Source of the DNA: an uncultured Erysipelotrichaceae bacterium
Lineage (GTDB): Bacteria; Bacillota_I; Bacilli_A; RF39; UBA660
Direction: 5' to 3'
DNA: 62,753 nt
NCBI GenBank assembly: GCA_948442015.1
Contig: CAOJRP010000006.1
Coordinates: 1 to 62,753, forward strand
Shown piece after piece: positions 46,371 through 55,899 of this stretch. Each line of letters starts with the position of its first letter. The first letter of the stretch is position 1. The position numbers and the translations under genes were made by a program. The notes beneath the pieces are model-generated. The model worked only from the letters and a program-made list of their open reading frames with translations. It searched no databases and was not told where the DNA came from.

Positions 46371-46391
46371 TTGTTACTAACTTGTTATTAG
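46371..46391 (+). repeat. Putative integrase arm-type sites (TTGTTACTAAC tandem)
   Basis: ttgttactaac-ttgttattag here; ctgttactatc-ttgttactaac at 58040-58061; inverted pair at 51980-52000. Confidence 0.65.
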
Positions 46392-47393
46392 TTCAATTGC
46401 ATATTTTAGTTCTTCAAGTGTTTTATGTGTATAAACTCTTTCACCAACTTCTTTGGATTTGTGACCCATTAACATATCAATACATTTCTTATTTGCACCT
46501 GCTGAATCCAATCTACTTCTGAATGTATGTCTGCATTCATGTGGTGTATGATCCATTTTAAATTTTTCCATTAAATCATCCCATATTTTATAATATAGAT
46601 AACTTGATAACTTTTTCCCATCTAGTTCAAATAAATAAACTTGTCCAGATTCCACCCTAGATTTGATTATATTGAAGATTTTGGAATGAATAGGTATAAT
46701 CCTATTCTTACCAGCATTTGTCTTTGTACCACCTTGTATTGTGCCTTGTTCAAGGTCTATATCTGTAATTTTAATATTTAAAAGTTCACTAATTCTAAAA
46801 CCCGTGTATATGAATACTAATATTGAATCAACCCATTCTTCTTTTTCATGTTCCCACAATATCTTAATTTCTTCTTCAGTGAATGGGATTTTAGTTGTTT
46901 CAGGAATACTTTCAGCAGTAGTTAATTGTGCATAAGACTTATTTATAACATCTAGTTCTAAAGCAAATTTATCTAAATGACCAAATAAATTTTTAATTGC
47001 CCATTGTGTTGAATAACCACAACCACAATTATCAATACAATCTTGCATGTGAAATGATTTTAAATCCTTATACTTCATATCATGATATTTTTTAGTGTGT
47101 TTAAATGCTGAAGTTAGTGAACCTCTAGTTGATTTATTTAATTTTAATAATTTCTTTTCTTGAAATAATTTCCATAATTCTTTTAATGTAACCTTAACTG
47201 CATCTACATCATAAGGATCATTATTATATAATGCTAACATAATATTTCCTTCTTCTCTTGTAGGTGCATATCCAATTGTTAAATAAATAGGGTGACCTTT
47301 TTCATTCCATCCAGTGGTTTTTCTTACTGCAAATGGATTTCTTCTGTTTCCTGATAATTTAACAACTGATCCATAACCATTTGGATTTTTCAT
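46377..47393 (-). CDS. Tyrosine recombinase / phage integrase (start MKNPNG)
   Basis: YTGFRISEL (R), KT.AG, HECRHTF (HxxR), MGH, VYTH (Y). Confidence 0.97.
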   Translation of the reverse strand: MKNPNGYGSVVKLSGNRRNPFAVRKTTGWNEKGHPIYLTIGYAPTREEGNIMLALYNNDPYDVDAVKVTLKELWKLFQEKKLLKLNKSTRGSLTSAFKHTKKYHDMKYKDLKSFHMQDCIDNCGCGYSTQWAIKNLFGHLDKFALELDVINKSYAQLTTAESIPETTKIPFTEEEIKILWEHEKEEWVDSILVFIYTGFRISELLNIKITDIDLEQGTIQGGTKTNAGKNRIIPIHSKIFNIIKSRVESGQVYLFELDGKKLSSYLYYKIWDDLMEKFKMDHTPHECRHTFRSRLDSAGANKKCIDMLMGHKSKEVGERVYTHKTLEELKYAIELITS

Positions 47394-47523
47394 TTTATCA
47401 AATTCCTTTCTAATTTTTTTTACATATGACATTTGACTAAATCCCAAGAAAATGATAAAATGATATTGTCAAATATGGGAATTAGAATGACTTTCTTTTC
47501 ATTATTTGATTAAATTTAGACTT

Positions 47524-47556: not shown

Positions 47557-47994
47557 TTATTTTGTGTTTTGAGAATCATCATTTGGTGATTCTTTTTTGT
47601 ATTTTGGAATTAAAGTAAGATCATCAACAACTTCAATTGCTTTTTGCTTTCCTTTTGAATTTAATTCATCAAAAGATTCAAGTATGTTTACATAATCAGA
47701 ACCAAAAGTATTTTGAATTTGTTCAATAGTGTTTACCTTTTCTTGAAGTTTTTCTTTTATTGAACTTTCTTCCCAACCTTTTAATGTATTGTCATTAACA
47801 CCAGAATTTAACCAAAGTTCAGATACATTGAATGTCTTACTTATAAGTTTAATATTTCTAATAGATAGGTTTCTTGTTCCATTCTCTATATTAGATATTC
47901 CTGATTTTTTTAATCCAATTTTTTCACCAAATTCTTCTTGTGTTAAACCTAATGACAATCTTAATTCTTTAACCCTATTACCAATATCACTCAT
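47557..47994 (-). CDS. XRE-family master repressor (CI/Stl-like)
   Basis: LRLSLGLTQEEFGEKIGLKKSGISNIENG; divergent from a Cro-like gene. Confidence 0.9.
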   Translation of the reverse strand: MSDIGNRVKELRLSLGLTQEEFGEKIGLKKSGISNIENGTRNLSIRNIKLISKTFNVSELWLNSGVNDNTLKGWEESSIKEKLQEKVNTIEQIQNTFGSDYVNILESFDELNSKGKQKAIEVVDDLTLIPKYKKESPNDDSQNTK

Positions 47995-48095
47995 CAAAAT
48001 CCTCCTTCTATAATTGGTACAAGTACATTATATATCAAAAAATTATGTTTGTAAACATTATTTACCCAAAAGTTTTCAAAAGTTCACAAAAGTTA

Positions 48096-48125
48096 TTGAC
48101 AAGTACACAAAAGATATATTATAAT
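48096..48125 (+). promoter_or_regulatory. Rightward (lytic-type) promoter of the element
   Basis: TTGACA-18-TATAAT; overlapped by the repeat aagtWcacaaaag (48080 and 48101), a possible operator. Confidence 0.7.
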
Positions 48126-48159
48126 GTATTCATACAGAACAAGAAAGAAGGTGAAAAAT

Positions 48160-48366
48160 ATGAAAATTGATAAAGAAAAATTACAATTAGCAATAGCAAA
48201 AAAATGTTATACAATTAATGATTTAGCAGAAAAAGCAGAAATTTCAAGAAATAGTATTAATGCTTATATGTCAGGAAGAAAAAATCCTAAACCAATGACA
48301 GTTGGAAAAATAGCAAGGGTTCTTGAAGTAAAAGTGGAAGATATAGTTAAAACGGAAAACAATTAG
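48160..48366 (+). CDS. Cro-like HTH regulator
   Basis: TINDLAEKAEISRNSINAYMSG. Confidence 0.85.
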   Translation: MKIDKEKLQLAIAKKCYTINDLAEKAEISRNSINAYMSGRKNPKPMTVGKIARVLEVKVEDIVKTENN

Positions 48367-48403
48367 TCTAAATTTATTCAAAGTGAAAGGAAATGATAGA
48401 AAA

Positions 48404-48817
48404 ATGAATAAAAAAATTGCAAGTGGAATTTATAAAGTTAATGTTGTAAAAATGGAATTGAAAGGATCTAAAAATGATGATCCAATGGTTTCAATTTGGT
48501 TTAAGGTTGTACCACAAGGTAAATATACCAATAAATTAATATTTATGAACCAGGTGATTACAGAAGGTTATCAGATTCATATTGTAAATGAATTATTAAG
48601 AAGTTTAACTGAAAATTTAACTGATGTAGATATAGAATTTATTAATTATCCCCAATATTCAAAACTATTAGATGATGTTGTTAAAAAGATAAGAAATAAA
48701 TTTATTTACTTACTAGATTATAGGCAAAATACTAAAGGATATAAATTATTTAAAATTGTAAAAACATTTGATGTTAAAGAAAAAGGAAGCAACCTGAATG
48801 TTAAAATTACAAAATAA
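48404..48817 (+). CDS. DUF669-like phage protein (possible ssDNA-binding)
   Basis: GIYKVNVVKMELKGSKNDDPMVSIWFKV..GKY.NKLIF. Confidence 0.7.
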   Translation: MNKKIASGIYKVNVVKMELKGSKNDDPMVSIWFKVVPQGKYTNKLIFMNQVITEGYQIHIVNELLRSLTENLTDVDIEFINYPQYSKLLDDVVKKIRNKFIYLLDYRQNTKGYKLFKIVKTFDVKEKGSNLNVKITK

Positions 48818-48844: not shown

Positions 48845-50836
48845 ATGGATGAATTTTTTAAAGGATATGTAAAAACTAAAGATAAAAAGTGCATGGAAAA
48901 GTTCAAAAATAGAAATGATTTTAAATCTTATGAAGAAGTAAAAGACTTACCTGAATTTGCAGGAATTCTTGCAGACAATACTATTTTAGTTGATATTGAT
49001 GATAGTGAACAAGCAGAACTTATGATGAACATTGTTGAAGATTTTCAACTTAATTGTAGAGTTTATCAAACAACTAGAGGGAAACATTTTCTATTCAGAA
49101 ATACAAACATTGAAAAATGTTATACCCATTGCAATTTAGCATGTGGAATAACTGCTGATATTAAAGTTGGATGTAAAAATTCATATGAAATTCTTAAATT
49201 TGATAATAAAGAAAGATTTATTGAATGGGATATTGAAGAAGGCATGGAATATCAATCTATTCCTAAATGGATGACACCAGTAAAAAATAGTACAGATTTT
49301 CAAAATATGGAAAATGGTGATGGAAGAAATCAAGCATTATTTAATTATATCCTAACCTTACAATCAAGTGATTTTTCAATAGAGGAAGCAAGAGAAACTA
49401 TAAAAATCATTAATAATTATGTTTTGAAAGAACCATTATCAGATGATGAATTGGATGTAATATTAAGAGATGATTCATTTAAGAAACCTATTTTTTACAA
49501 GGGAAATTCATTCTTATTTGATAAATTTGCTTTATTTTTAAAGAATAATCATCATATCAAAAGGATTAATAATCAATTACATTTATTTAAAGATGGAATA
49601 TACATTACTGGTCAACAAGAAATTGAATCAGCAATGATCGAGCATATACCACAATTAAATAGAGCAAAAAGAACAGAAGTAATGTCATATTTAGATATTT
49701 TGATTAGAGAAAATACACCAGTTACACCAGCAAAATTTATTGCTTTTAGGAATGGGATTTTAAACATTGATACAAATGAATTATTACCTTATTCACCTGA
49801 TTTTATTATTACTAATAAAATTGAATGGGATTATAACAAAAATGCTTATTCTGAAGAAGTTGATGAAGTATTAAATAATATTTCTTGTAATGATAAAGAA
49901 ATAAGGGAATTACTTGAAGAAATTGTTGGATCTTGCTTTTACAGATCACAAACACTTGCTGGTGGAAAAGCTATTGTTTTAGTCGGAAATGGTGCAAATG
50001 GTAAATCCACATATCTTAAATTGCTAAAAAAAGTTTTAGGTGATGAAAACACTTCAGCACTTGATTTAAGAAAGTTAGATGATAAATTTTCTACTGTTAT
50101 GATGTTTGGAAAATTAGCAAACATTGGGGATGATATAAATGATAAAATTATTTGTGATATGTCCTTTTTTAAAAAGGTTGTAACTGGGGAAACTGTTCCA
50201 GCACAACAGAAAGGTCAACCCCAATTTGATTTTGCCCCATATTGTAAATTAATATTTAGTGCAAATAATATTCCTAGAATGGGTAATGGTATGGATTCAT
50301 TTGCAATTCGTAGAAGATTAGTCATTGTTCCATTTAATGCTAAATTTACAAAAGGCAACGAAAATTATAACTTAAATATTGTTTCTTCATTATCTACACA
50401 ATCAAGTATGGAATATTTAATTAAATTAGGGGTTGAAGGATTAAAGAGGATATTACAAAATAATGATTATACTACTTCAGATAAGGTTCAATCTGAAATG
50501 AAAGATTATCAAATGGCAAATGATCCTATTTTTGCTTTTATAATCGAAGAACAAGAAAAAATAAGTGTTGATGGTGCAAAAGTCTTTGAGAATGAATTTC
50601 AAAAGGATGTAAAAGCAAGATATGAAGTCTTTTGTATAAATAATGGTTTTAATAATGACAAAATTCCAGATAATATGTTTACAAAAAAATTAAAACTATA
50701 TATACCTACTTTAGAAACAACAAGACCTAGGGTAAATATAGAAACTAAAAATGCTGAAGGAAGACTTCAAAATAAAAGTATTAGAAAAACACAATATGTT
50801 TATATGGACACAATAAACAAAAATAGGACAAGTTAG
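48845..50836 (+). CDS. Primase-helicase, phage/plasmid P4 family (D5-like SF3 helicase)
   Basis: VDIDD and TTRGKHF (prim-pol), GDGRNQAL (PriCT), GNGANGKST Walker A, LANIGDDI, IFSANNIP. Confidence 0.93.
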   Translation: MDEFFKGYVKTKDKKCMEKFKNRNDFKSYEEVKDLPEFAGILADNTILVDIDDSEQAELMMNIVEDFQLNCRVYQTTRGKHFLFRNTNIEKCYTHCNLACGITADIKVGCKNSYEILKFDNKERFIEWDIEEGMEYQSIPKWMTPVKNSTDFQNMENGDGRNQALFNYILTLQSSDFSIEEARETIKIINNYVLKEPLSDDELDVILRDDSFKKPIFYKGNSFLFDKFALFLKNNHHIKRINNQLHLFKDGIYITGQQEIESAMIEHIPQLNRAKRTEVMSYLDILIRENTPVTPAKFIAFRNGILNIDTNELLPYSPDFIITNKIEWDYNKNAYSEEVDEVLNNISCNDKEIRELLEEIVGSCFYRSQTLAGGKAIVLVGNGANGKSTYLKLLKKVLGDENTSALDLRKLDDKFSTVMMFGKLANIGDDINDKIICDMSFFKKVVTGETVPAQQKGQPQFDFAPYCKLIFSANNIPRMGNGMDSFAIRRRLVIVPFNAKFTKGNENYNLNIVSSLSTQSSMEYLIKLGVEGLKRILQNNDYTTSDKVQSEMKDYQMANDPIFAFIIEEQEKISVDGAKVFENEFQKDVKARYEVFCINNGFNNDKIPDNMFTKKLKLYIPTLETTRPRVNIETKNAEGRLQNKSIRKTQYVYMDTINKNRTS

Positions 50837-51032
50837 GTACAAGCATAAATTATTAACTTGTCCTTGATTTTTACAAATAAATAAAAGGATTTTTAAGATT
50901 ATGGACAGGTGGACAAGTTAAATTCAATTTATTTATAAAATATAATACACTAAAAAAAAAGTATTAATAAATTTTTTTATATACAGAAAAAAAAGAATAT
51001 AAATTAACTTGTCTTCTTGTCCAACATGTCCA
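50805..51032. other. Putative replication origin of the element
   Basis: GGACA(AGTT) iterons at 50805, 50826, 50903 and 50911, with inverted copies at 50855 and 51006-51031 flanking an AT-rich core directly downstream of the helicase. Confidence 0.75.
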
Positions 51033-51064
51033 TTTATCTTTTATGAAAGGAAGATGAAAATTAT

Positions 51065-51349
51065 ATGAAAACTAGAAATTTTAATGAACTGAAAGATTGT
51101 ATACCTAAAGAAGTATATGATCATATAAAAAATAATTATGCAGGTGATGCTTTTTACATATCTACTAAAGATTATGAATTTTCATCACCTACAGAAAAAA
51201 TAAAATACATTCAAAAATTGTATTTTGGTGGTAAATCGGTGAAATATATAGCAAATGAACTTGGAATGTCTGAAGATCGAGTTAATCATCTTAAAAATGC
51301 TAAATTAAAAAAAGATAATGCTAATAAAGTTGAACCTGAAAAAACCTGA
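51065..51349 (+). CDS. Mor-like transcription activator / HTH protein
   Basis: IKNNYAGDAFYI followed by HTH GKSVKYIANELGMSEDRV. Confidence 0.7.
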   Translation: MKTRNFNELKDCIPKEVYDHIKNNYAGDAFYISTKDYEFSSPTEKIKYIQKLYFGGKSVKYIANELGMSEDRVNHLKNAKLKKDNANKVEPEKT

Positions 51350-51902
51350 AATTATAATCAGAACTTAACAAAACTTAACATTCAAGAAAAAAAAGTATAT
51401 TTGAAAACCTCACAAAACCTCACATTCACCATAAAAATGCTAACAAATGCTAACCTTTAAACATATATTAAGAACCTTACAAAACCTGACATTCTATTTA
51501 AAAATTATTAATAAAACTTGTTATTTGGATTATTCAATTGTTAAGGTTTAAAGATATATAATGTTGTTATACAAGTAGATAGTAAAATGCTAGGAAATGC
51601 TAGGGTTCAAACTATTGATAAGATTCATAGTGACAAAATTGTTAGTATTCAACAGTATTTACGAACTAGAATACTTACAAATGCAAACATAATAAAATAT
51701 AAAGTGGCAGAGAAAAGTAGAGTTTGTGATGCAATTGAAAACACTAACAAATACTAACATTCGAAACTTATTTGAATGGTTGAATTGATAAGGAATGATA
51801 AGGTTAAAACTTATATAGCAAATGTTGACAAATGTTGACCTTTAAATTTATATAAAGGGATTGATTTTATGTTATTTTTATAAGAATAACATAACCTGAA
51901 TT
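51333..51902 (+). repeat. Array of 10 or more distinct 10-bp tandem doublets resembling terS gene fragments (candidate pac-site array)
   Basis: (aaacctgaaa)x2, (aacttaacaa)x2, (aaacctcaca)x2, (aaatgctaac)x2, aaccttacaa/aacctgaca, (aaatgctagg)x2, acactaacaa/atactaaca, (tgataaggaa)x2, (aaatgttgac)x2, some copies imperfect; no long ORF. Confidence 0.85.
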
Positions 51903-52077
51903 ATCGGCTTTAAATATAAGGATTTTATGTTTAATAAATGGTAAAATTATATTGTCAAAATATATTCGAAAGGTAGGTATTAGTAACAGGTTAGTAACAA
52001 AAATACAAATATTGTCTAGTATTCCTACACTTTAGAAATATTAGGCAATATTTTTGTTTGAAAGGATGGTATATATC

Positions 52078-52695
52078 ATGGGTAAGTTGAACAGAGAATT
52101 TTTAAAGGATTTGGGCATAGATGATAAAGATGTTGTTGATGCAATTCTTGATGAACATTCCAAAATAATTGGTGAAGTTAAAAAAGAACTAAATACTGTT
52201 AATGCTAAATTTGAATTTTTGAATCAAAAAAATGATGAATTAACTAGCGAATTAAAAGATAGGGATAATCAACTTAATGATTTAAAAAATTCTACTGAAG
52301 ATGTTGCAGGATTAAAGAAAACTATTGAAGATTTACAAAACACTAATAAGACATGTGATGAAGCACATAAGAATGAAATTAATGATCTTAAAAAATCATT
52401 TGCAATTGAAAATGCTTTAAGAGATGCTAAAGCAAGAAATATTATTTCAGTAAAAGCATTACTTAAATTAGATGAAATTGAATTAAAAGAAGATGGTTCA
52501 TTAAAAGGATTATCTGAACAACTTGAAACTCTTAAAGGTGCTGAAGATAGTAAGTTCTTATTTGATACTGAAACTAGAACCTTAAAAGGGGCAATTCCAG
52601 GGGAAACAGGTATGGATGATCCTAGTACCAAAATTGATTTATCAAAAATGACTTATGATGAAAGAAATGCATATTTTGAAGGTGATTTTGATTGA
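52078..52695 (+). CDS. Phage scaffolding protein (minor structural protein GP20 family)
   Basis: LNREFLKDLGI, coiled coil, AKARNIISVKALL, GLSEQLETLK...FLF, KMTYDE. Confidence 0.88.
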   Translation: MGKLNREFLKDLGIDDKDVVDAILDEHSKIIGEVKKELNTVNAKFEFLNQKNDELTSELKDRDNQLNDLKNSTEDVAGLKKTIEDLQNTNKTCDEAHKNEINDLKKSFAIENALRDAKARNIISVKALLKLDEIELKEDGSLKGLSEQLETLKGAEDSKFLFDTETRTLKGAIPGETGMDDPSTKIDLSKMTYDERNAYFEGDFD

Positions 52696-53153
52696 ACGAG
52701 AAAGAATTACTAAATCAAGTGAAATTAAATAGCAATATAGAGATTATTTATAAAAATTTGTGGGCAGTTAATTTTGATTATTTATCAAATGGTTGGTTAC
52801 AAGGTATTACTATTGATAATTTAGATATTGAAAGTTATTTAACAATAGTTGAATTCGGAATAAATAGTTCTACTACTGTGATCCTAAACAAAGGACATAA
52901 AAATTATGAAAAAATACTATCAGTTTTTAAATTTATTATGAAACTATCTATTAAAGAAATGCAAAACAAAAATACATTTTATAAGTGGTTTAGATGCAAT
53001 TTTAAAAACTATAAAAAATATTCAAATGTTCAAATTGATTCTTTACTAAAAAAGCATGATATATCAAAAGTAAAGGAATTTTATAATCAATCATGTCTTT
53101 TAGAAATTCAAAGAAGAAGGGATGAAAAAATCAGAAAAAAGAAAGGTAGGTGA
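52692..53153 (+). CDS. Hypothetical protein
   Basis: ORF overlapping the scaffold stop and tape-measure start, suggesting translational coupling. Confidence 0.7.
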
Positions 53154-53158
53154 TAGTT

Positions 53159-55141
53159 ATGGCAAGTATTACAACTGCAATACATCTAACTGATAATATG
53201 ACACCAGTATTAAGAAATATAACTGGTGCAATGGATTCAACTCTTGATATTTTTGAAAATATGGACAGTGAAATGAATAAATCATTTGATACTTCCAAAA
53301 TAAATTCTGCAAGAATTGCAATTGATCAAGTAAATGCTTCATTAAATTCAATGGAAGATAATCTTAATAAAAACTATCAACAACAAAATAAATTAAATAA
53401 GGAAATTCAAGATGGTAAAAACAAAGTTGATAATATGATGGGTTCTGTTGTTTCTTTAGTTTCTGCATATGCTGGATTTAAAACAATTGGTAAATTAGTC
53501 AATTTATCAGATGAATATACTCAAACAAGAGCAAGATTAAATTTAATGAATGATGGTTTACAAACTACTGATGAATTGCAGCAAAAAATATTTAATTCTG
53601 CACAAAGAGCAAGATCATCTTACCAAACACAAGCAGATATAGTTGCAAAACTTGGACAAAGAGCAGGTGATGCTTTTAAATCCAATAATGAAACAATTGC
53701 ATTTGCTGAAAATTTAAGTAAGTTATTTGTTATTGCTGGTGCAAGTCAACAAGAAATGGCATCAGCATCATTACAATTAACCCAAGCATTAGGTTCAGGT
53801 GTTCTTCGTGGTGAAGAATTAAATGCAGTATTTGAATCAGCACCAAATGTTATTCAAACAATTGCTGATTATTTAGATGTTCCAATTGGTAAAATTCGTG
53901 AAATGGCAAGTGATGGTAAAATTACTGCTGATATAGTAAAGAATGCTCTACTAGGTGCTACAAATGATATTAATAGTCAATTTGATAGTATTCCTATGAC
54001 TTGGTCACAAGTATGGACTGGTGTTATGAATGAATTATATGTGGCAACACAACCTATATTAGAATTAATTAATTTACTAGCACAAAATTGGTCAATTATA
54101 GAACCAATTGTAATTGCTTTAGCAACTGCAATTGGATTATATACGGCTGCATTATTAACCTACAACACAATTGTTGGTATTTCCAACATGCTTACTGCAA
54201 CTAAGGCTGCAATGGATGCTTTGGCAGCAGGCAAAACTTTTATGTGGACTGCTGCACAATATGGTTTTAATGCTGCTTTGTTAGCATGTCCATTAACATG
54301 GATTTTGTTAATTATTATTGCAGTTATTGCTGCAATTTATGCAGTAGTAGCAGCCATAAATAAAGCAAAGGGTACAACAGTTAGTGCTACTGGTGTAATA
54401 TGTGGAAGCATTAATGTAGTTTTACAATTTTTTAAGAATTTAGGATTATTTATTGCAAATGTTGCTTTGGGTATTTGGAATGCTTTGGGTGCTTGTGCAT
54501 CAAATATTGGTATTGCATTTAATAATGTTATCTGTAATATTAAATCGTGGTTTTATGGTTTATTAGAAACAGTTATGGATGTTATTGCTGGAATAGTAAA
54601 AACATTGAATAAATTACCATTTATTGATATTGATGTATCAGGTATTACAAGTAAAGCAGATGAATATGCTGCAAAGAAAGCAGAAGCAGAAAATAATAAA
54701 AAAGATTATGAATCAGTAAGTGAAGCATTTAATAAAGGAATGAATACTTTTGATGCCTTTGAAACTGGATGGGTTTCAGATGCATATAATGCAGGTTACA
54801 AAGTTGGTGAAAATGTTGATTCTGCAATAGGAAATTTCTTTGGTGGTGGGGATATTCCTGATATGGCTAGTGATTTAGGTGATCTTGGAAATTCAGCATC
54901 AAAAATTGCATCAGATACTGGTTCAATTAAGGATTCATTAGATATAACTTCTGAAGAATTAAAATATTTAAGAGATTTAGCAGAAAGAGATGTTGTTAAT
55001 AGATTTACTACTGCTGAAATTCATGTTGATATGGGCGGTATTACAAACAATGTATCAAATAATAATGATCTTGATGGAATTATTAATTATCTTGTTGAAG
55101 GTGTTGAAGTTGCTATGGAAGAAACTGCTGAAGGGGTATAA
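53159..55141 (+). CDS. Phage tape measure protein (~660 aa)
   Basis: Tape_meas-type domain ([22 protein letters not shown]), Ala-rich hydrophobic central region, C-terminal [18 protein letters not shown]. Confidence 0.92.
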
Positions 55142-55182
55142 ATTTTTACAAAATGATTTGAAATAAGGAAGGATGATGAGAT

Positions 55183-55899
55183 ATGAAAAATAGTTTAGAA
55201 AAAATTTTAAAGGAACATTCAGATTTAACTGATAAAACGAATGAAAAAATTGAAAATGTGATTGAAAGTTATAGAAATAATACTTTTGCACAAAGAATGA
55301 TAAATCATGAATTGGCATCAATGATTAATGAAGAAATTGAAAAAATAGTAGAAGAATATAAGGAAAGTGAACAAAAACTTCAAGTTACCTTTGAAGAAAT
55401 TGTTAATAAGGAAAAAGATAGAATTATCCATATGAATGAAAATACATCTGCAGAATACTCAATTAGAATAAATAATGCATTAAATTTCTTAAAAGCATCA
55501 GATGATACACTTACAGATGATACCGCTCATATAATGTTGGAAGATTTTGAAAAGGATTATAAGACAATGCACCTATTCAAACAAATTATTGAAAATAGTA
55601 ATGGTTTATGCGTTATTAATCCATTAGATCCTACTGATGTTAAATTTCCTAAAACATTTGGAAACTTTAGCAATAAATTAAAGTGTTTCAATATTTTAGA
55701 TGAACTTACTAAAAATTCGAAAGATGCATTAAAATACTTTTTACGAGATAAAAACTTTGTTATAAAAGATGGTGATGCATCAAAAGGAATTGGAAGACTT
55801 ACTTGGGATTTTTCAGTTCCTAGTCCAGGTTATGCTTCAATGACTGGAAATGATGTTATTTTAGAACTTTTACAAAAATATGAAAAAATAGAAATTTAA
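55183..55899 (+). CDS. Hypothetical protein
   Basis: 238-aa ORF with RBS. Confidence 0.75.
   Translation: MKNSLEKILKEHSDLTDKTNEKIENVIESYRNNTFAQRMINHELASMINEEIEKIVEEYKESEQKLQVTFEEIVNKEKDRIIHMNENTSAEYSIRINNALNFLKASDDTLTDDTAHIMLEDFEKDYKTMHLFKQIIENSNGLCVINPLDPTDVKFPKTFGNFSNKLKCFNILDELTKNSKDALKYFLRDKNFVIKDGDASKGIGRLTWDFSVPSPGYASMTGNDVILELLQKYEKIEI

What the first reader, a model, noticed from the sequence alone, without database searches (positions are those of the whole stretch)
51333..51902. Non-coding array of different terminase-small-subunit gene fragments: candidate multi-helper pac-site library in a phage satellite
Seen: about ten clear units, each a different 10-bp tandem doublet, separated by unrelated AT-rich spacers, in mixed frames with stop codons. 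Translated individually they read NLKKPEI (51333), QNLTKLNIQE (51359), ENLTKPHI (51403), KMLTNANL*TYI (51434), KNLTKPDI (51470), SKMLGNARVQ (51581), TRILTNANI (51665), KTLTNTNI (51738), ELIRNDKVKTYI (51782) and QMLTNVDL*IYI (51819). Decayed units read VKV*RYI (~51540) and VSIQQYL (~51641). Established: this matches the conserved 'ENLxKPxI' / 'RLLxNxxVxxYI' segment of Terminase_2 (PF03592, SPP1 G1P-like) small subunits, and in headful phages such as SPP1, P22 and 80alpha pac lies within the terS gene. Inference: the element has no terminase of its own and has collected pac or TerS-binding sites from many phages. That could let several unrelated helpers package it, or the sites could act as TerS decoys. 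I know of no description of such an array.
Basis: partly seen in the sequence, partly recalled or inferred. Interest (0 to 1): 0.95.

Follow-up and report, generated by a model that had tools for sequence, protein, structure and literature searches.

The report
Satellite array of phage packaging sites
A small mobile element in a mouse-gut bacterium has no packaging-recognition gene, but carries a row of about twelve different short DNA signals, each matching the signal inside that gene in a different group of phages, so it may be able to ride in the particles of many phages.

Summary
The window holds 6 exact period-10 doublets and all lie in 51333-51839. The other 1.5 Mb of the genome holds 20.

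The link to terS holds at the DNA level. Real Terminase_2 terS genes carry one 10-bp tandem doublet in the DNA encoding the LLxNxxV / NLxKPxI motif. In SPP1 this DNA starts 2 nt after the main pac cut.

I scanned IMG/VR for the exact doublets of five units. They fall in frame in TerS genes in 107/120, 72/122, 50/54, 48/62 and 65/117 matches. A hybrid of two half-sites gave 6 matches, none in TerS.

Ordinary terS loci hold a single doublet. Arrays of 4-13 different units recur in other small elements with an integrase and primase but no terminase found. A relative of the window's element has a real terS and only 3 units.

Between strains, both copies of one doublet change together, and units are gained or lost.

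Whether the array works as a multi-helper pac library, a TerS decoy or a sensor is inferred, not shown. Seven literature searches found no description of such arrays.

The parts
46377..47447 (-). Tyrosine integrase; left end of the ~10-kb element
   Evidence: PF00589 E 9e-21, phrog_1 E 5e-42
47557..47997 (-). HTH_3 repressor-like protein
   Evidence: PF01381 E 5e-18; phrog_4 and phrog_8
48124..48366 (+). Cro-like HTH protein, divergent from the repressor
   Evidence: PF01381 E 3e-10
48383..48817 (+). Single-strand DNA-binding-like protein
   Evidence: phrog_7778 E 8e-37; DUF669 weak
48845..50836 (+). Primase/helicase with D5_N and DUF5906 domains
   Evidence: phrog_864 E 4e-176; PF19263 and PF08706; 86% identical to the G161 protein
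50837..51064 (.). Intergenic stretch with GGACA(A/G)GT-type direct and inverted repeats. Candidate replication origin. Not part of the array.
   Evidence: Read; collinear with G161 at 76% identity. The function is inferred from its position after the primase gene.
51065..51349 (+). 94-aa HTH protein. Its last codons overlap unit U1.
   Evidence: phrog_836 'late transcriptional activator' E 8e-4. Only sub-threshold Pfam HTH hits. No fold match; Mor 1rr7 ranks 25 with E 1.5.
51333..51352 (+). U1, doublet AACCTGAAAA x2 (9/10), reads NLKKPEI. Three copies in run X16.
51362..51381 (+). U2, doublet AACTTAACAA x2 (9/10), reads QNLTKLNIQE. Kept in G161. In X12 and X13 both copies are changed in the same way.
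   Evidence: The exact 18-mer falls in frame in TerS genes in 65 of 117 IMG/VR matches.
51405..51424 (+). U3, doublet AAACCTCACA x2 (10/10), reads ENLTKPHI
   Evidence: 48 of 62 IMG/VR matches in TerS frames
51435..51469 (+). U4, doublet AAATGCTAAC x2 (10/10), then 9 nt and TATATT; reads KMLTNANL*TYI
   Evidence: 107 of 120 IMG/VR matches in TerS frames; 33/45 identical to the terS segment of L033, from the same bacterial family
51473..51492 (+). U5, near-doublet AACCTTACAA / AACCTGACAT (8/10), reads KNLTKPDI
51537..51561 (+). U6, a single TTGTTAAGG copy followed by TATATAAT. It is a full 10-bp doublet in runs X12, X13 and X16.
   Evidence: (D3); its core matches the doublet in the terS of L038
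51585..51604 (+). U7, doublet AAATGCTAGG x2 (10/10), reads SKMLGNARVQ
   Evidence: 50 of 54 IMG/VR matches in TerS frames
51639..51663 (+). U8, decayed unit (6/10), reads VSIQQYL
51670..51689 (+). U9, near-doublet (7/10), reads TRILTNANI
   Evidence: 33/45 identical to the L033 terS segment
51740..51759 (+). U10, doublet AACACTAACA / AATACTAACA (9/10), reads KTLTNTNI
51785..51804 (+). U11, near-doublet TTGATAAGGA / ATGATAAGGT (8/10), reads ELIRNDKVKTYI
   Evidence: its core is close to the doublet in the terS of L040
51820..51857 (+). U12, doublet AAATGTTGAC x2 (10/10), then 9 nt and TATATA; reads QMLTNVDL*IYI. Counterpart of the first unit in G161.
   Evidence: 72 of 122 IMG/VR matches in TerS frames
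51860..51901 (.). Inverted repeat with 21-nt arms directly after the array, kept in G161. Role unknown.
   Evidence: I3
51977..51998 (+). Period-11 doublet (ATTAGTAACAG / GTTAGTAACAA), kept in G161 ahead of the first late gene. Candidate operator or late promoter site.
   Evidence: The function is inferred.
52054..52695 (+). Head scaffolding protein. In G161 a terS gene stands between the units and this gene.
   Evidence: PF06810 E 7e-37, phrog_194 E 6e-43
52692..53153 (+). 153-aa protein of unknown family, kept in G161
   Evidence: no Pfam or PHROG hit
53150..55141 (+). Tape measure protein
   Evidence: PF20155 E 4e-50, phrog_1068 E 2e-193

Best explanation
The array is a non-coding collection of about twelve different packaging-recognition sites.

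Each unit is a 10-bp tandem doublet, mostly followed by xTT, about 6 nt and TATAT. It is the DNA counterpart of the single doublet that many Terminase_2 (SPP1 G1P-like) terS genes carry inside their own coding sequence. In SPP1 that position lies next to the pac cut, in the pacC/pacR part of pac.

The element is a ~10-kb integrase/repressor/primase satellite. It has scaffold and tape-measure genes but no terminase.

Proposed mechanism (inferred):
1. A headful phage with a matching TerS class infects the cell.
2. Its TerS ring binds the matching doublet on replicated satellite DNA, with two neighbouring HTH domains one helical turn apart.
3. TerS recruits the helper's TerL.
4. Headful packaging starts at the array and runs rightwards through the scaffold and tape-measure genes.

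Carrying many specificity classes side by side would let many unrelated helpers package the element.

Shown: the homology of the units to the doublets embedded in terS, selection on those doublets at the DNA level, the lack of a terminase, and the recurrence of such arrays. Inferred: TerS binding, cleavage and packaging.
For: 1. Non-random array. All 6 exact period-10 doublets of the window lie in 507 bp, against 20 in the other 1.5 Mb.

2. Real terS genes carry the doublet. The sample was chosen by protein profile only (PF03592; 15 of 401 and 9 of 399 genomes, 23 genes with G161's). In 10 of 23 genes the gene-wide maximum of lag-10 self-match lies exactly at the LLxNxxV / NLxKPxI motif; two of these are tied with another place. 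The amino acids covary so that the DNA repeat is kept: LLTNAN, LLRNVK, LIGIDR, NLAKPS.

3. The doublets exceed what the protein sequence requires. Synonymous-codon resampling gives P 0.0025-0.05 for five genes, and P 0.004 summed over the 17 genes that the motif pattern caught.

4. SPP1 anchor. Coordinate 1 of the record lies in terS, 2 nt before GAG AAC ATG CAA AAA CCG CAC GTC (ENMQKPHV). A 7-bp repeat spaced 10 bp apart follows. [quoted passage not shown] The same paper says pac overlaps the DNA encoding the DNA-binding domain of gp1, and that gp1 binds pacL and pacR (passage).

5. Mapping in IMG/VR. Exact doublets of U4, U12, U7, U3 and U2 fall in a stop-free frame that hits a TerS profile in 107/120, 72/122, 50/54, 48/62 and 65/117 matches. 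A hybrid 17-mer made of half U4 and half U12 gave 6 matches, 0 in TerS.

6. One doublet per terS. Of 260 terS-context matches with enough flank, 243 have no other doublet in the 605 nt upstream, 17 have one and none has two or more.

7. Arrays recur in other small elements.
- L083, L113, L123, L126 and L132 are contigs of 11.6-14 kb. L132 has an integrase, a repressor, Rha-domain proteins and a primase, and no terminase hit.
- L089 and L103 hold about 8 units just upstream of a DUF4355 scaffold gene.
- L470 holds about 13 units.
- Further arrays are in L441, L450, L471, L412, L367 and L375.
- A TerS profile run over six frames of 17 array-bearing stretches hit only G161's and, weakly, L375.

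8. Synteny. G161 has the same flanks, a real PF03592 terS (E 8e-28) between the units and the scaffold gene, and only 3 units. The window lacks that terS and has 12 units.

9. Strain variation in contigs of four runs.
- In X12 and X13, positions 51367-8 and 51377-8 change AA>GT in both copies of U2.
- A 10-bp insertion restores the U6 doublet in X12, X13 and X16.
- X16 has a third copy of the U1 10-mer.
- X16 contigs skip 51498-51584 and 51612-51861.
The changed U2 doublet is itself found in real TerS genes reading ENLSKLVI (12 of 121 metagenome matches).

10. All units point the same way, the direction of terS transcription. The statement that SPP1 packages in that direction is recalled, not checked.
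Against: No binding, cleavage or packaging datum exists for this element.

- All runs that hold it are kept as contigs, so molecule ends could not be seen.
- For SF6 and SPP1, the isolated TerS DNA-binding domain bound pac DNA without sequence preference, and the box repeats 'had little effect' (PMC4737164, passages). A reference title in PMC6316719 says the SPP1 cut needs no specific sequence (title only).
- The SPP1 repeat is 7 bp long and starts about 9 nt further downstream than the doublets described here.
- SPP1 pac also includes pacL. A 35-bp unit alone may not be a complete pac site.
- 13 of the 23 profile-selected terS genes show no doublet at the motif, among them G161's own terS.
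- For U12 and U2, 50 of 122 and 52 of 117 matches are not in TerS frames. Some of these lie in giant-virus contigs.
- The variant doublet lies in TerS frames in only 12 of 121 metagenome matches.
- blastn against 50,697 named phage records gave little. No terS was among the 20 rows listed for the whole array. For U4, 1 of 40 listed rows was a terS.
- 10-bp slippage can make the two copies identical without selection, so the concerted change is not proof of selection.
- U6, U8 and U9 are imperfect in this window.
Confidence: 0.6

Rival explanations
1. TerS decoy or sponge. The same sites bind helper TerS but do not start productive packaging. Many sites on a replicating satellite would draw TerS away from the helper's own pac and lower helper yield. 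This could act together with packaging.
For: It rests on the same homology evidence. Units are trimmed to about 35 bp and lack any counterpart of SPP1 pacL, so they may bind TerS without supporting cleavage. Satellites are known to interfere with helper packaging: SeCISE48 Ppi binds phage TerS (PMC12597102, passage) and PLE Gpi blocks TerL (PMC11417361, abstract).
Against: An element without a terS still needs some way into capsids, and no other packaging signal was seen. A decoy against one helper would not need twelve classes. Nothing here separates binding from packaging.
Confidence: 0.15
2. Helper sensor. TerS of an infecting phage, bound at a doublet that overlaps the -35 position of a TATAT -10-like element, switches on transcription of the genes downstream. 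These are scaffold and tape measure here, a Bro-N gene in L470 and a scaffold gene in L089.
For: Most units in the window and in L470 carry TATAT or TATAG 6-10 nt after the doublet. The array lies upstream of an operon and points the same way in the window, L089 and L470. A reference title in PMC6316719 says SPP1 terminase also represses its own synthesis (title only).
Against: Sigma-70-like sites in 50800-52150 number 12, against 11.0 +/- 3.7 in shuffles. In L132 the array points against both neighbouring genes. The L132-type units end in T runs with no TATA. The TATAT partly mirrors the YI codons of terS.
Confidence: 0.1
3. Recombination patches. Short identities of 17-35 bp with helper terS genes let the satellite recombine into helper concatemers exactly at pac. 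It would then be packaged as a hybrid molecule.
For: Units share 17 or more exact bases with terS genes. The element encodes an SSB-like protein. Plasmids carrying a phage terS formed plasmid-phage hybrids joined within terS in S. aureus (PMC12323379, passage).
Against: The identity is very short. Selection for two identical half-sites, and the 0 of 6 result for the hybrid control, are not expected if only homology length mattered. No recombinase was identified.
Confidence: 0.07
4. Non-functional scars. The units are leftovers of repeated illegitimate recombination with helper DNA ends cut at pac, or of a decayed terS region, and 10-bp slippage keeps them looking tidy.
For: The 10-mer copy number varies from 1 to 3 between strains, and blocks of units are missing in X16. 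U6, U8 and U9 are imperfect.
Against: Arrays with the same unit build recur in unrelated elements. Units are trimmed to the same ~35-bp core, with no variable terS flanks. Four units are perfect 10/10 in non-coding DNA. The same classes (U2, U3, U4) turn up in several unrelated arrays.
Confidence: 0.05
5. Binding sites for the element's own proteins: iterons for the primase, or operators for the 94-aa HTH protein.
For: The array starts at the end of the HTH gene, 500 bp after the primase gene. The HTH protein has weak similarity to late activators.
Against: The units differ from one another, unlike iterons. The same doublets occur inside terS genes and in arrays of elements with unrelated replication and regulatory genes. 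A separate set of GGACAAGT repeats sits directly after the primase gene.
Confidence: 0.03

Closest known systems
SPP1 / SF6 pac site (pacL-pacC-pacR, with boxA, boxB and boxC direct repeats) inside and upstream of the terS gene
   Same: The same terS family (PF03592) and the same place in the gene: the DNA encoding the end of the DNA-binding domain, next to the main cut. Short direct repeats are spaced one helical turn apart.
   Different: In SPP1 there is one site, embedded in coding DNA, with pacL about 100 bp upstream. Here there are about 12 different units, non-coding, each about 35 bp, and no terS. The SPP1 repeat is 7 bp long and lies about 9 nt further downstream. Sequence-specific binding to the boxes was not found for the isolated SF6 domain.
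Mimicry of the ICP1 pac site by the Vibrio cholerae satellite PLE
   Same: A satellite carries a short copy of its helper's pac site (14 bp) and needs it for transduction (PMC11417361, abstract and section headings).
   Different: PLE has one site for one helper and also encodes packaging specifiers. Here there are many different sites and no packaging protein was recognised.
SaPIbov5 carrying the cos site of helper phage phi12 (and P4 carrying P2-type cos, recalled)
   Same: A satellite without its own terminase carries the helper's packaging signal (PMC8569155, passage).
   Different: That is a single cos site, not an array of pac-type sites of several specificities.
SaPI/PICI elements with their own TerS and their own pac site (for example SeCISE48)
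   Same: Integrase/repressor/primase islands packaged by helper TerL into helper capsids (PMC12597102, passages). The relative G161 has this layout, with its own terS.
   Different: The window's element has no terS, and the array stands where terS stands in G161.
Pseudo-pac sites on chromosomes and plasmids (generalised transduction)
   Same: Short pac-like sequences outside phage genomes that let TerS start packaging (PMC8494744, passage).
   Different: Those are scattered chance look-alikes used at low frequency. Here the sites are clustered, oriented, exact copies of many classes.
Iteron origins and CRISPR arrays (resemblance in appearance only)
   Same: Short repeats separated by short spacers in non-coding DNA.
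   Different: Iterons and CRISPR repeats are alike across the array. Here each doublet is alike only within itself and differs from the others. No cas genes were seen in the ORFs annotated.

Membership tests
SPP1-type pac site (Terminase_2 phages) | Lies in or at the 5' part of the phage's own terS gene | tested here: not met
   The units are non-coding, in mixed frames with stops, and the element has no terS. They are copies of the terS-embedded sequence in a new setting.
SPP1-type pac site (Terminase_2 phages) | Short direct repeats about one helical turn apart | tested here: met
   Period 10 in 10 of 12 units. SPP1 has a 7-bp repeat spaced 10 bp apart.
SPP1-type pac site (Terminase_2 phages) | Sequence homology to the pac region of real terS genes | tested here: met
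   342 of 475 exact-doublet matches in IMG/VR lie in frame in TerS genes. The hybrid control gave 0 of 6.
SPP1-type pac site (Terminase_2 phages) | Bound by TerS and cut nearby by TerL; virion DNA ends map there | not testable with these tools
   Only contigs were available, and no molecule ends were reported (table 6).
Phage satellite of the PICI kind | Integrase, divergent repressor/cro pair and a primase-type replication gene, in about 10-15 kb | tested here: met
   The element runs from about 46.4 to 56.6 kb. Its right end was not defined: the only candidate att repeat was a 16-mer.
Phage satellite of the PICI kind | No terminase, portal or major capsid genes of its own | tested here: met
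   No such hit among the 20 ORFs searched. PF03592, PF03237, PF03354 and PF04466 were not found in the 89.5%-complete assembly. Two ORFs (153 and 238 aa) have no family.
Phage satellite of the PICI kind | Induced and packaged by a helper phage | not testable with these tools
   No helper was identified. The element occurs in gut metagenome runs of 10 studies.
Iteron-type replication origin | Several near-identical repeats bound by the element's own Rep | tested here: not met
   The units differ from each other and recur in elements with other replication genes.
Array of sigma-70 promoters | More -35/-10 matches than chance | tested here: not met
   12 sites against 11.0 +/- 3.7 in shuffles.
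Mor / late activator family (for the 94-aa protein) | Significant match to the family profile or fold | tested here: inconclusive
   phrog_836 E 8e-4. No Pfam hit above the cut-off. Model pLDDT is 66.6 and Mor 1rr7 ranks 25 with E 1.5.
Known RNA family | Match to an Rfam model | tested here: not met
   0 matches at E <= 1 in 50700-52200.

The most novel reading that the evidence does not exclude
The 10-bp doublet is a general, readable specificity code for packaging by Terminase_2 phages.

- Each TerS class carries its own binding site inside the DNA that encodes the end of its own DNA-binding domain. Site and protein therefore change together.
- Firmicutes satellites without a terS keep an evolvable 'address book' of these codes. 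They update it by 10-bp slippage and by gain or loss of units, and so can be packaged by whichever phage arrives.
- If this is true, helper-satellite networks and the reach of transduction in gut communities could be predicted from sequence alone, by matching array units to terS doublets.
Probability: 0.35. Interest if true: 0.95.

Novelty: new variant of a known kind. Interest (0 to 1): 0.88.

Why it matters
How a satellite without a terminase gets into capsids, and what sets its helper range, is known for only a few model systems, each with a single helper signal. This locus and its look-alikes point to a different solution: a modular set of many helper packaging signals.

A second result goes beyond this window. 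A class-specific 10-bp doublet kept inside terS coding DNA would give a sequence-level handle on pac specificity in a large phage group, where biochemical work on SPP1 and SF6 has not found a sequence-specific contact.

Both ideas are directly testable by plasmid transduction, virion end mapping and TerS binding assays. If they hold, one could predict which phages move which elements in gut communities.

Tried and rejected
- Close relatives by protein. Scans of IMG/VR with the 94-aa protein and with the scaffold protein found none. A scan of the metagenome collection with the alignment of the two 94-aa proteins found none.
- Search of 401 genomes of the order with the 94-aa protein gave one real relative, G161, and three weak HTH hits that I did not follow.
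- The primase alignment against species genomes gave 11 loci. The 73%-identical ones (L023, L024) are full phages with methyltransferase genes and no doublets. L031 ends inside the primase gene.
- DNA search of 61 related genomes with the 1.1-kb region gave only short AT-rich matches.
- blastn of the whole array and of U4 against named phages: no terS among the 20 rows listed and 1 terS among the 40 rows listed. The best-ranked Staphylococcus hits lie in a homing-endonuclease gene and lack the doublet. I took them as chance.
- My first pattern for finding the motif in terS loci was too strict and found nothing useful. In the resampling test, the motif pattern missed 6 of 23 genes, among them the NLxKP types.
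- The automatic array finder flagged 36 of 512 sources, but these include the window's own copies and plain tandem repeats. I rely only on the loci I read by eye.
- The search for att repeats gave only an AT-rich 16-mer.
- Fold of the 94-aa protein: low confidence and no match.
- Rfam: nothing. Promoter and terminator scan: not above chance.
- Read laying could not show molecule ends, because only contigs were served. The parts without cover in X19 and X16 prove nothing.
- Complex prediction was not used, because no protein pair is claimed to bind.
- Supplementary files of papers were not requested. Supplementary Figure S2 of PMC4737164, which holds the box sequences, may bear on exactly where boxB and boxC lie relative to the doublets.
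Full report
**Observation.** Region 51333-51860 holds a run of units, each made of two adjacent copies of a 10-mer. The 10-mer differs from unit to unit.
- Tandem Repeats Finder reports seven two-copy period-10 repeats there. The repeat finder groups nine units into two 38-nt families.
- An exact scan finds 6 period-10 doublets in the 62,753-base window, all in 51333-51839, and 26 in the whole 1,496,975-base assembly. The Poisson chance of 6 in 507 bp is of the order 1e-16 (my arithmetic).
- Lag-10 matches: 10/10 for U3, U4, U7 and U12; 9/10 for U1, U2 and U10; 8/10 for U5 and U11; 7/10 for U9. U6 is a single copy and U8 is decayed. The figure for U11 is my reading of the sequence at start 51785.

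**Setting.** The window is contig C6 of a 1.5-Mb assembly with 26% G+C, 89.5% complete. Record titles of relatives read 'uncultured Bacilli'.
- The array sits in a ~10-kb element: integrase, HTH repressor, cro-like gene, SSB-like gene, D5_N/DUF5906 primase, a repeat-rich intergenic stretch, a 94-aa HTH protein, the array, a head scaffold gene (PF06810), a 153-aa ORF, a tape measure gene and small ORFs.
- No terminase, portal or capsid family was hit.
- PF03592 and three large-terminase families were not found anywhere in the assembly. An incomplete assembly does not prove absence.

**A relative with a terS.** One genome of 401 searched in the order (G161) encodes a 67%-identical 94-aa protein and an 86%-identical primase.
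- Its locus is collinear with the window.
- It has only three units. Two of them correspond to U2-U3 and one to U12.
- A real terS (PF03592, E 8e-28) stands between the units and the scaffold gene.
- In the window that terS is missing between 52001 and 52079, and the array has grown to 12 units.

**Real terS genes carry the doublet.** I collected terS genes by protein profile only: 15 of 401 genomes of the same bacterial family and 9 of 399 of the class. With G161's that makes 23 genes.
- In 10 of 23 the gene-wide maximum of lag-10 self-match lies exactly at the DNA encoding the S(R/K)LLxNxxVxxYI or ENLxKPxI motif. Two of these are tied with another place.
- Examples: TGCTAAC-AAA-TGCTAAC reads LLTNAN (L033, the same doublet as U4). 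TGTTAAGG twice reads LLRNVK (L038, the core of U6). TTGATAGG twice reads LIGIDR (L040, close to U11). AACCTAG twice reads NLAKPS (L034).
- A period of 10 is not a multiple of 3, so the two copies are read in different frames. The amino acids covary so as to keep the DNA repeat.
- Resampling synonymous codons gives P 0.0025-0.05 for five genes, and P 0.004 summed over the 17 genes that the motif pattern caught.
- 13 of 23 genes have no doublet there. These include a distinct subgroup (L042-L047) and G161's own terS.

**Anchor in a studied phage.** In the SPP1 record, terS runs from 43878 to 422 across coordinate 1.
- Coordinate 1 lies 2 nt before GAG AAC ATG CAA AAA CCG CAC GTC, which reads ENMQKPHV. 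CGCACGT then occurs twice, spaced 10 bp apart.
- pac overlaps the DNA encoding the DNA-binding domain of gp1. Gp1 binds pacL and pacR, and gp2 cuts in pacC (same paper, passage).
- The doublets therefore lie at the pacC/pacR position of this terS family.

**Mapping the units to phages.** I scanned IMG/VR for the exact doublets of five units and scored the stop-free frame through each match against a TerS profile built from alignment A3.
- In TerS: U4 107 of 120, U12 72 of 122, U7 50 of 54, U3 48 of 62, U2 65 of 117.
- The flanking proteins are diverse.
- A control 17-mer that joins the first half of U4 to the second half of U12 gave 6 matches, none in TerS. The two halves must therefore be alike.
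- In 260 terS-context matches with enough flank, 243 have no other doublet in the 605 nt upstream, 17 have one and none has more.

**Other arrays.** Many matches outside TerS lie in non-coding runs of different doublets.
- L083, L113, L123, L126 and L132 are contigs of 11.6-14 kb with 5-6 units. L132 encodes an integrase, an HTH repressor, two Rha-domain proteins and a PriCT/D5_N primase, with no terminase hit. Its array lies between the repressor and integrase genes.
- L089 and L103 hold about 8 units just upstream of a DUF4355 scaffold gene.
- L470 holds about 13 units, each a doublet followed by a T-rich stretch and TATA(T/G)AG. They lie upstream of a Bro-N gene in a 12.4-kb contig that also has replication protein O, a DnaB-like helicase and a Rha-domain protein.
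- L441, L450, L471, L412, L367 and L375 hold further arrays.
- The Lactococcus satellite prophage bIL310 holds one to three units in non-coding DNA.
- A six-frame TerS profile search over 17 array-bearing stretches hit only G161's and, weakly, L375. Several of these stretches are partial contigs, and the profile is narrow.

**Variation between strains.** The stretch is held by gut metagenome runs of 10 studies, from mouse and rat by their records. Contigs of four runs were laid on it.
- X12 and X13 span the whole stretch at 95-99% identity. Both copies of U2 change together in them: 51367-8 and 51377-8, AA>GT.
- A 10-bp insertion after 51537 makes U6 a doublet in X12, X13 and X16.
- X16 has a third copy of the U1 10-mer.
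- X16 contigs skip 51498-51584 and 51612-51861.
- The changed U2 doublet exists in real TerS genes reading ENLSKLVI, but in only 12 of 121 matches in the much larger metagenome collection. About 25 matches lie in an unidentified ORF family, and the rest in short frames.

**Alternatives tested.**
- Sigma-70-like sites are not enriched: 12 against 11.0 +/- 3.7.
- There is no Rfam match.
- The 94-aa protein has only eight close homologues and sub-threshold HTH hits. Its model has pLDDT 66.6 and no fold match, and Mor ranks 25 with E 1.5. 'Mor-like' is therefore not confirmed.
- The units are unlike iterons, because they differ from one another and recur in elements with unrelated replication genes.

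**Most likely mechanism.**
- Shown: the units are copies of the doublet embedded in terS; that doublet is under constraint at the DNA level; arrays occur in elements lacking a terS; and in the window the array stands where terS stands in G161.
- Inferred: TerS rings of an infecting headful phage bind the matching doublet, recruit TerL and start headful packaging of the satellite. Many classes give many possible helpers.
- Decoy, sensor and recombination readings remain open.

**Evidence against, stated in full.**
- There are no binding or packaging data, and no read ends.
- The isolated SF6 DNA-binding domain showed no preference for the box repeats.
- The SPP1 repeat is shorter and lies further downstream than the doublets here.
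- A 35-bp unit lacks pacL.
- 13 of 23 terS genes lack the doublet.
- For U12 and U2, about two in five matches are outside TerS frames.
- Searches of named phages were nearly empty.
- Slippage alone can make the two copies identical.

**Comparison with what is known.**
- Single helper signals in satellites are on record: a 14-bp pac mimic in PLE (PMC11417361, abstract and outline) and a phi12 cos site in SaPIbov5 (PMC8569155, passage).
- Some satellites have their own TerS and pac (PMC12597102, passages).
- Seven full-text searches found no array of different pac-type sites. Papers in subscription journals are not covered by the library.

Noticed in passing
window 50837-51064; L021 3540-3290: Directly after the primase gene lies a repeat-rich stretch with GGACA(A/G)GT motifs in direct and inverted order around an AT-rich core. 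It is kept in G161. It is a candidate replication origin of the element.
   Followed up: partly
window 51977-51998; L021 2750-2725: A period-11 doublet (TTAGTAACA core) is kept in both elements about 55-110 nt ahead of the first late gene: scaffold in the window, terS in G161. It may be the operator or late promoter site of the 94-aa HTH protein.
   Followed up: no
window 51860-51901: An inverted repeat with 21-nt arms (81% complementary, no loop) stands right after the last unit. It lies in the stretch that aligns with G161 at 72% identity.
   Followed up: no
window 52054-55899: The satellite carries a head scaffold gene, a 153-aa ORF of no known family, a 663-aa tape measure gene and a 238-aa ORF, but no capsid or tail tube genes. 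This cargo might reshape the helper's head size or tail length.
   Followed up: no
L568, L569, L574, L576, L608 and about 20 more metagenome loci: An unidentified ORF family reading ...AIADAL...ARENLSKLVNSAVEVSG... carries the same 18-nt doublet as the U2 variant. It often occurs twice per contig, 2.3-3 kb apart. It was not recognised by my TerS profile.
   Followed up: no
L518 601-634 (Staphylococcus phage Remus): A homing-endonuclease gene of Twort-like Staphylococcus phages matches the 3' part of U4 at 32 of 36 bases without having the doublet. I took it as chance.
   Followed up: partly
L519 2940-3050 (Lactococcus satellite prophage bIL310): The non-coding DNA between orf8 and orf7 holds one clear unit (ATGCTAAC AAATGCTAAGG, then TTCAAATCTATAAA) and one or two weaker ones. 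A named, long-known satellite prophage may therefore carry the same kind of site.
   Followed up: partly
L348 3690-3740 and 3900-3950: In one IMG/VR contig the U3 doublet lies in non-coding DNA just upstream of an ORF with an HTH. A four-copy period-11 repeat (CTTTACA core) lies 200 bp before it.
   Followed up: no
window 51281-51332: The last 50 nt of the 94-aa gene already resemble the units (AATGCTAA twice; 29/45 identical to the L033 terS segment). The array may therefore run into the coding end of that gene.
   Followed up: no
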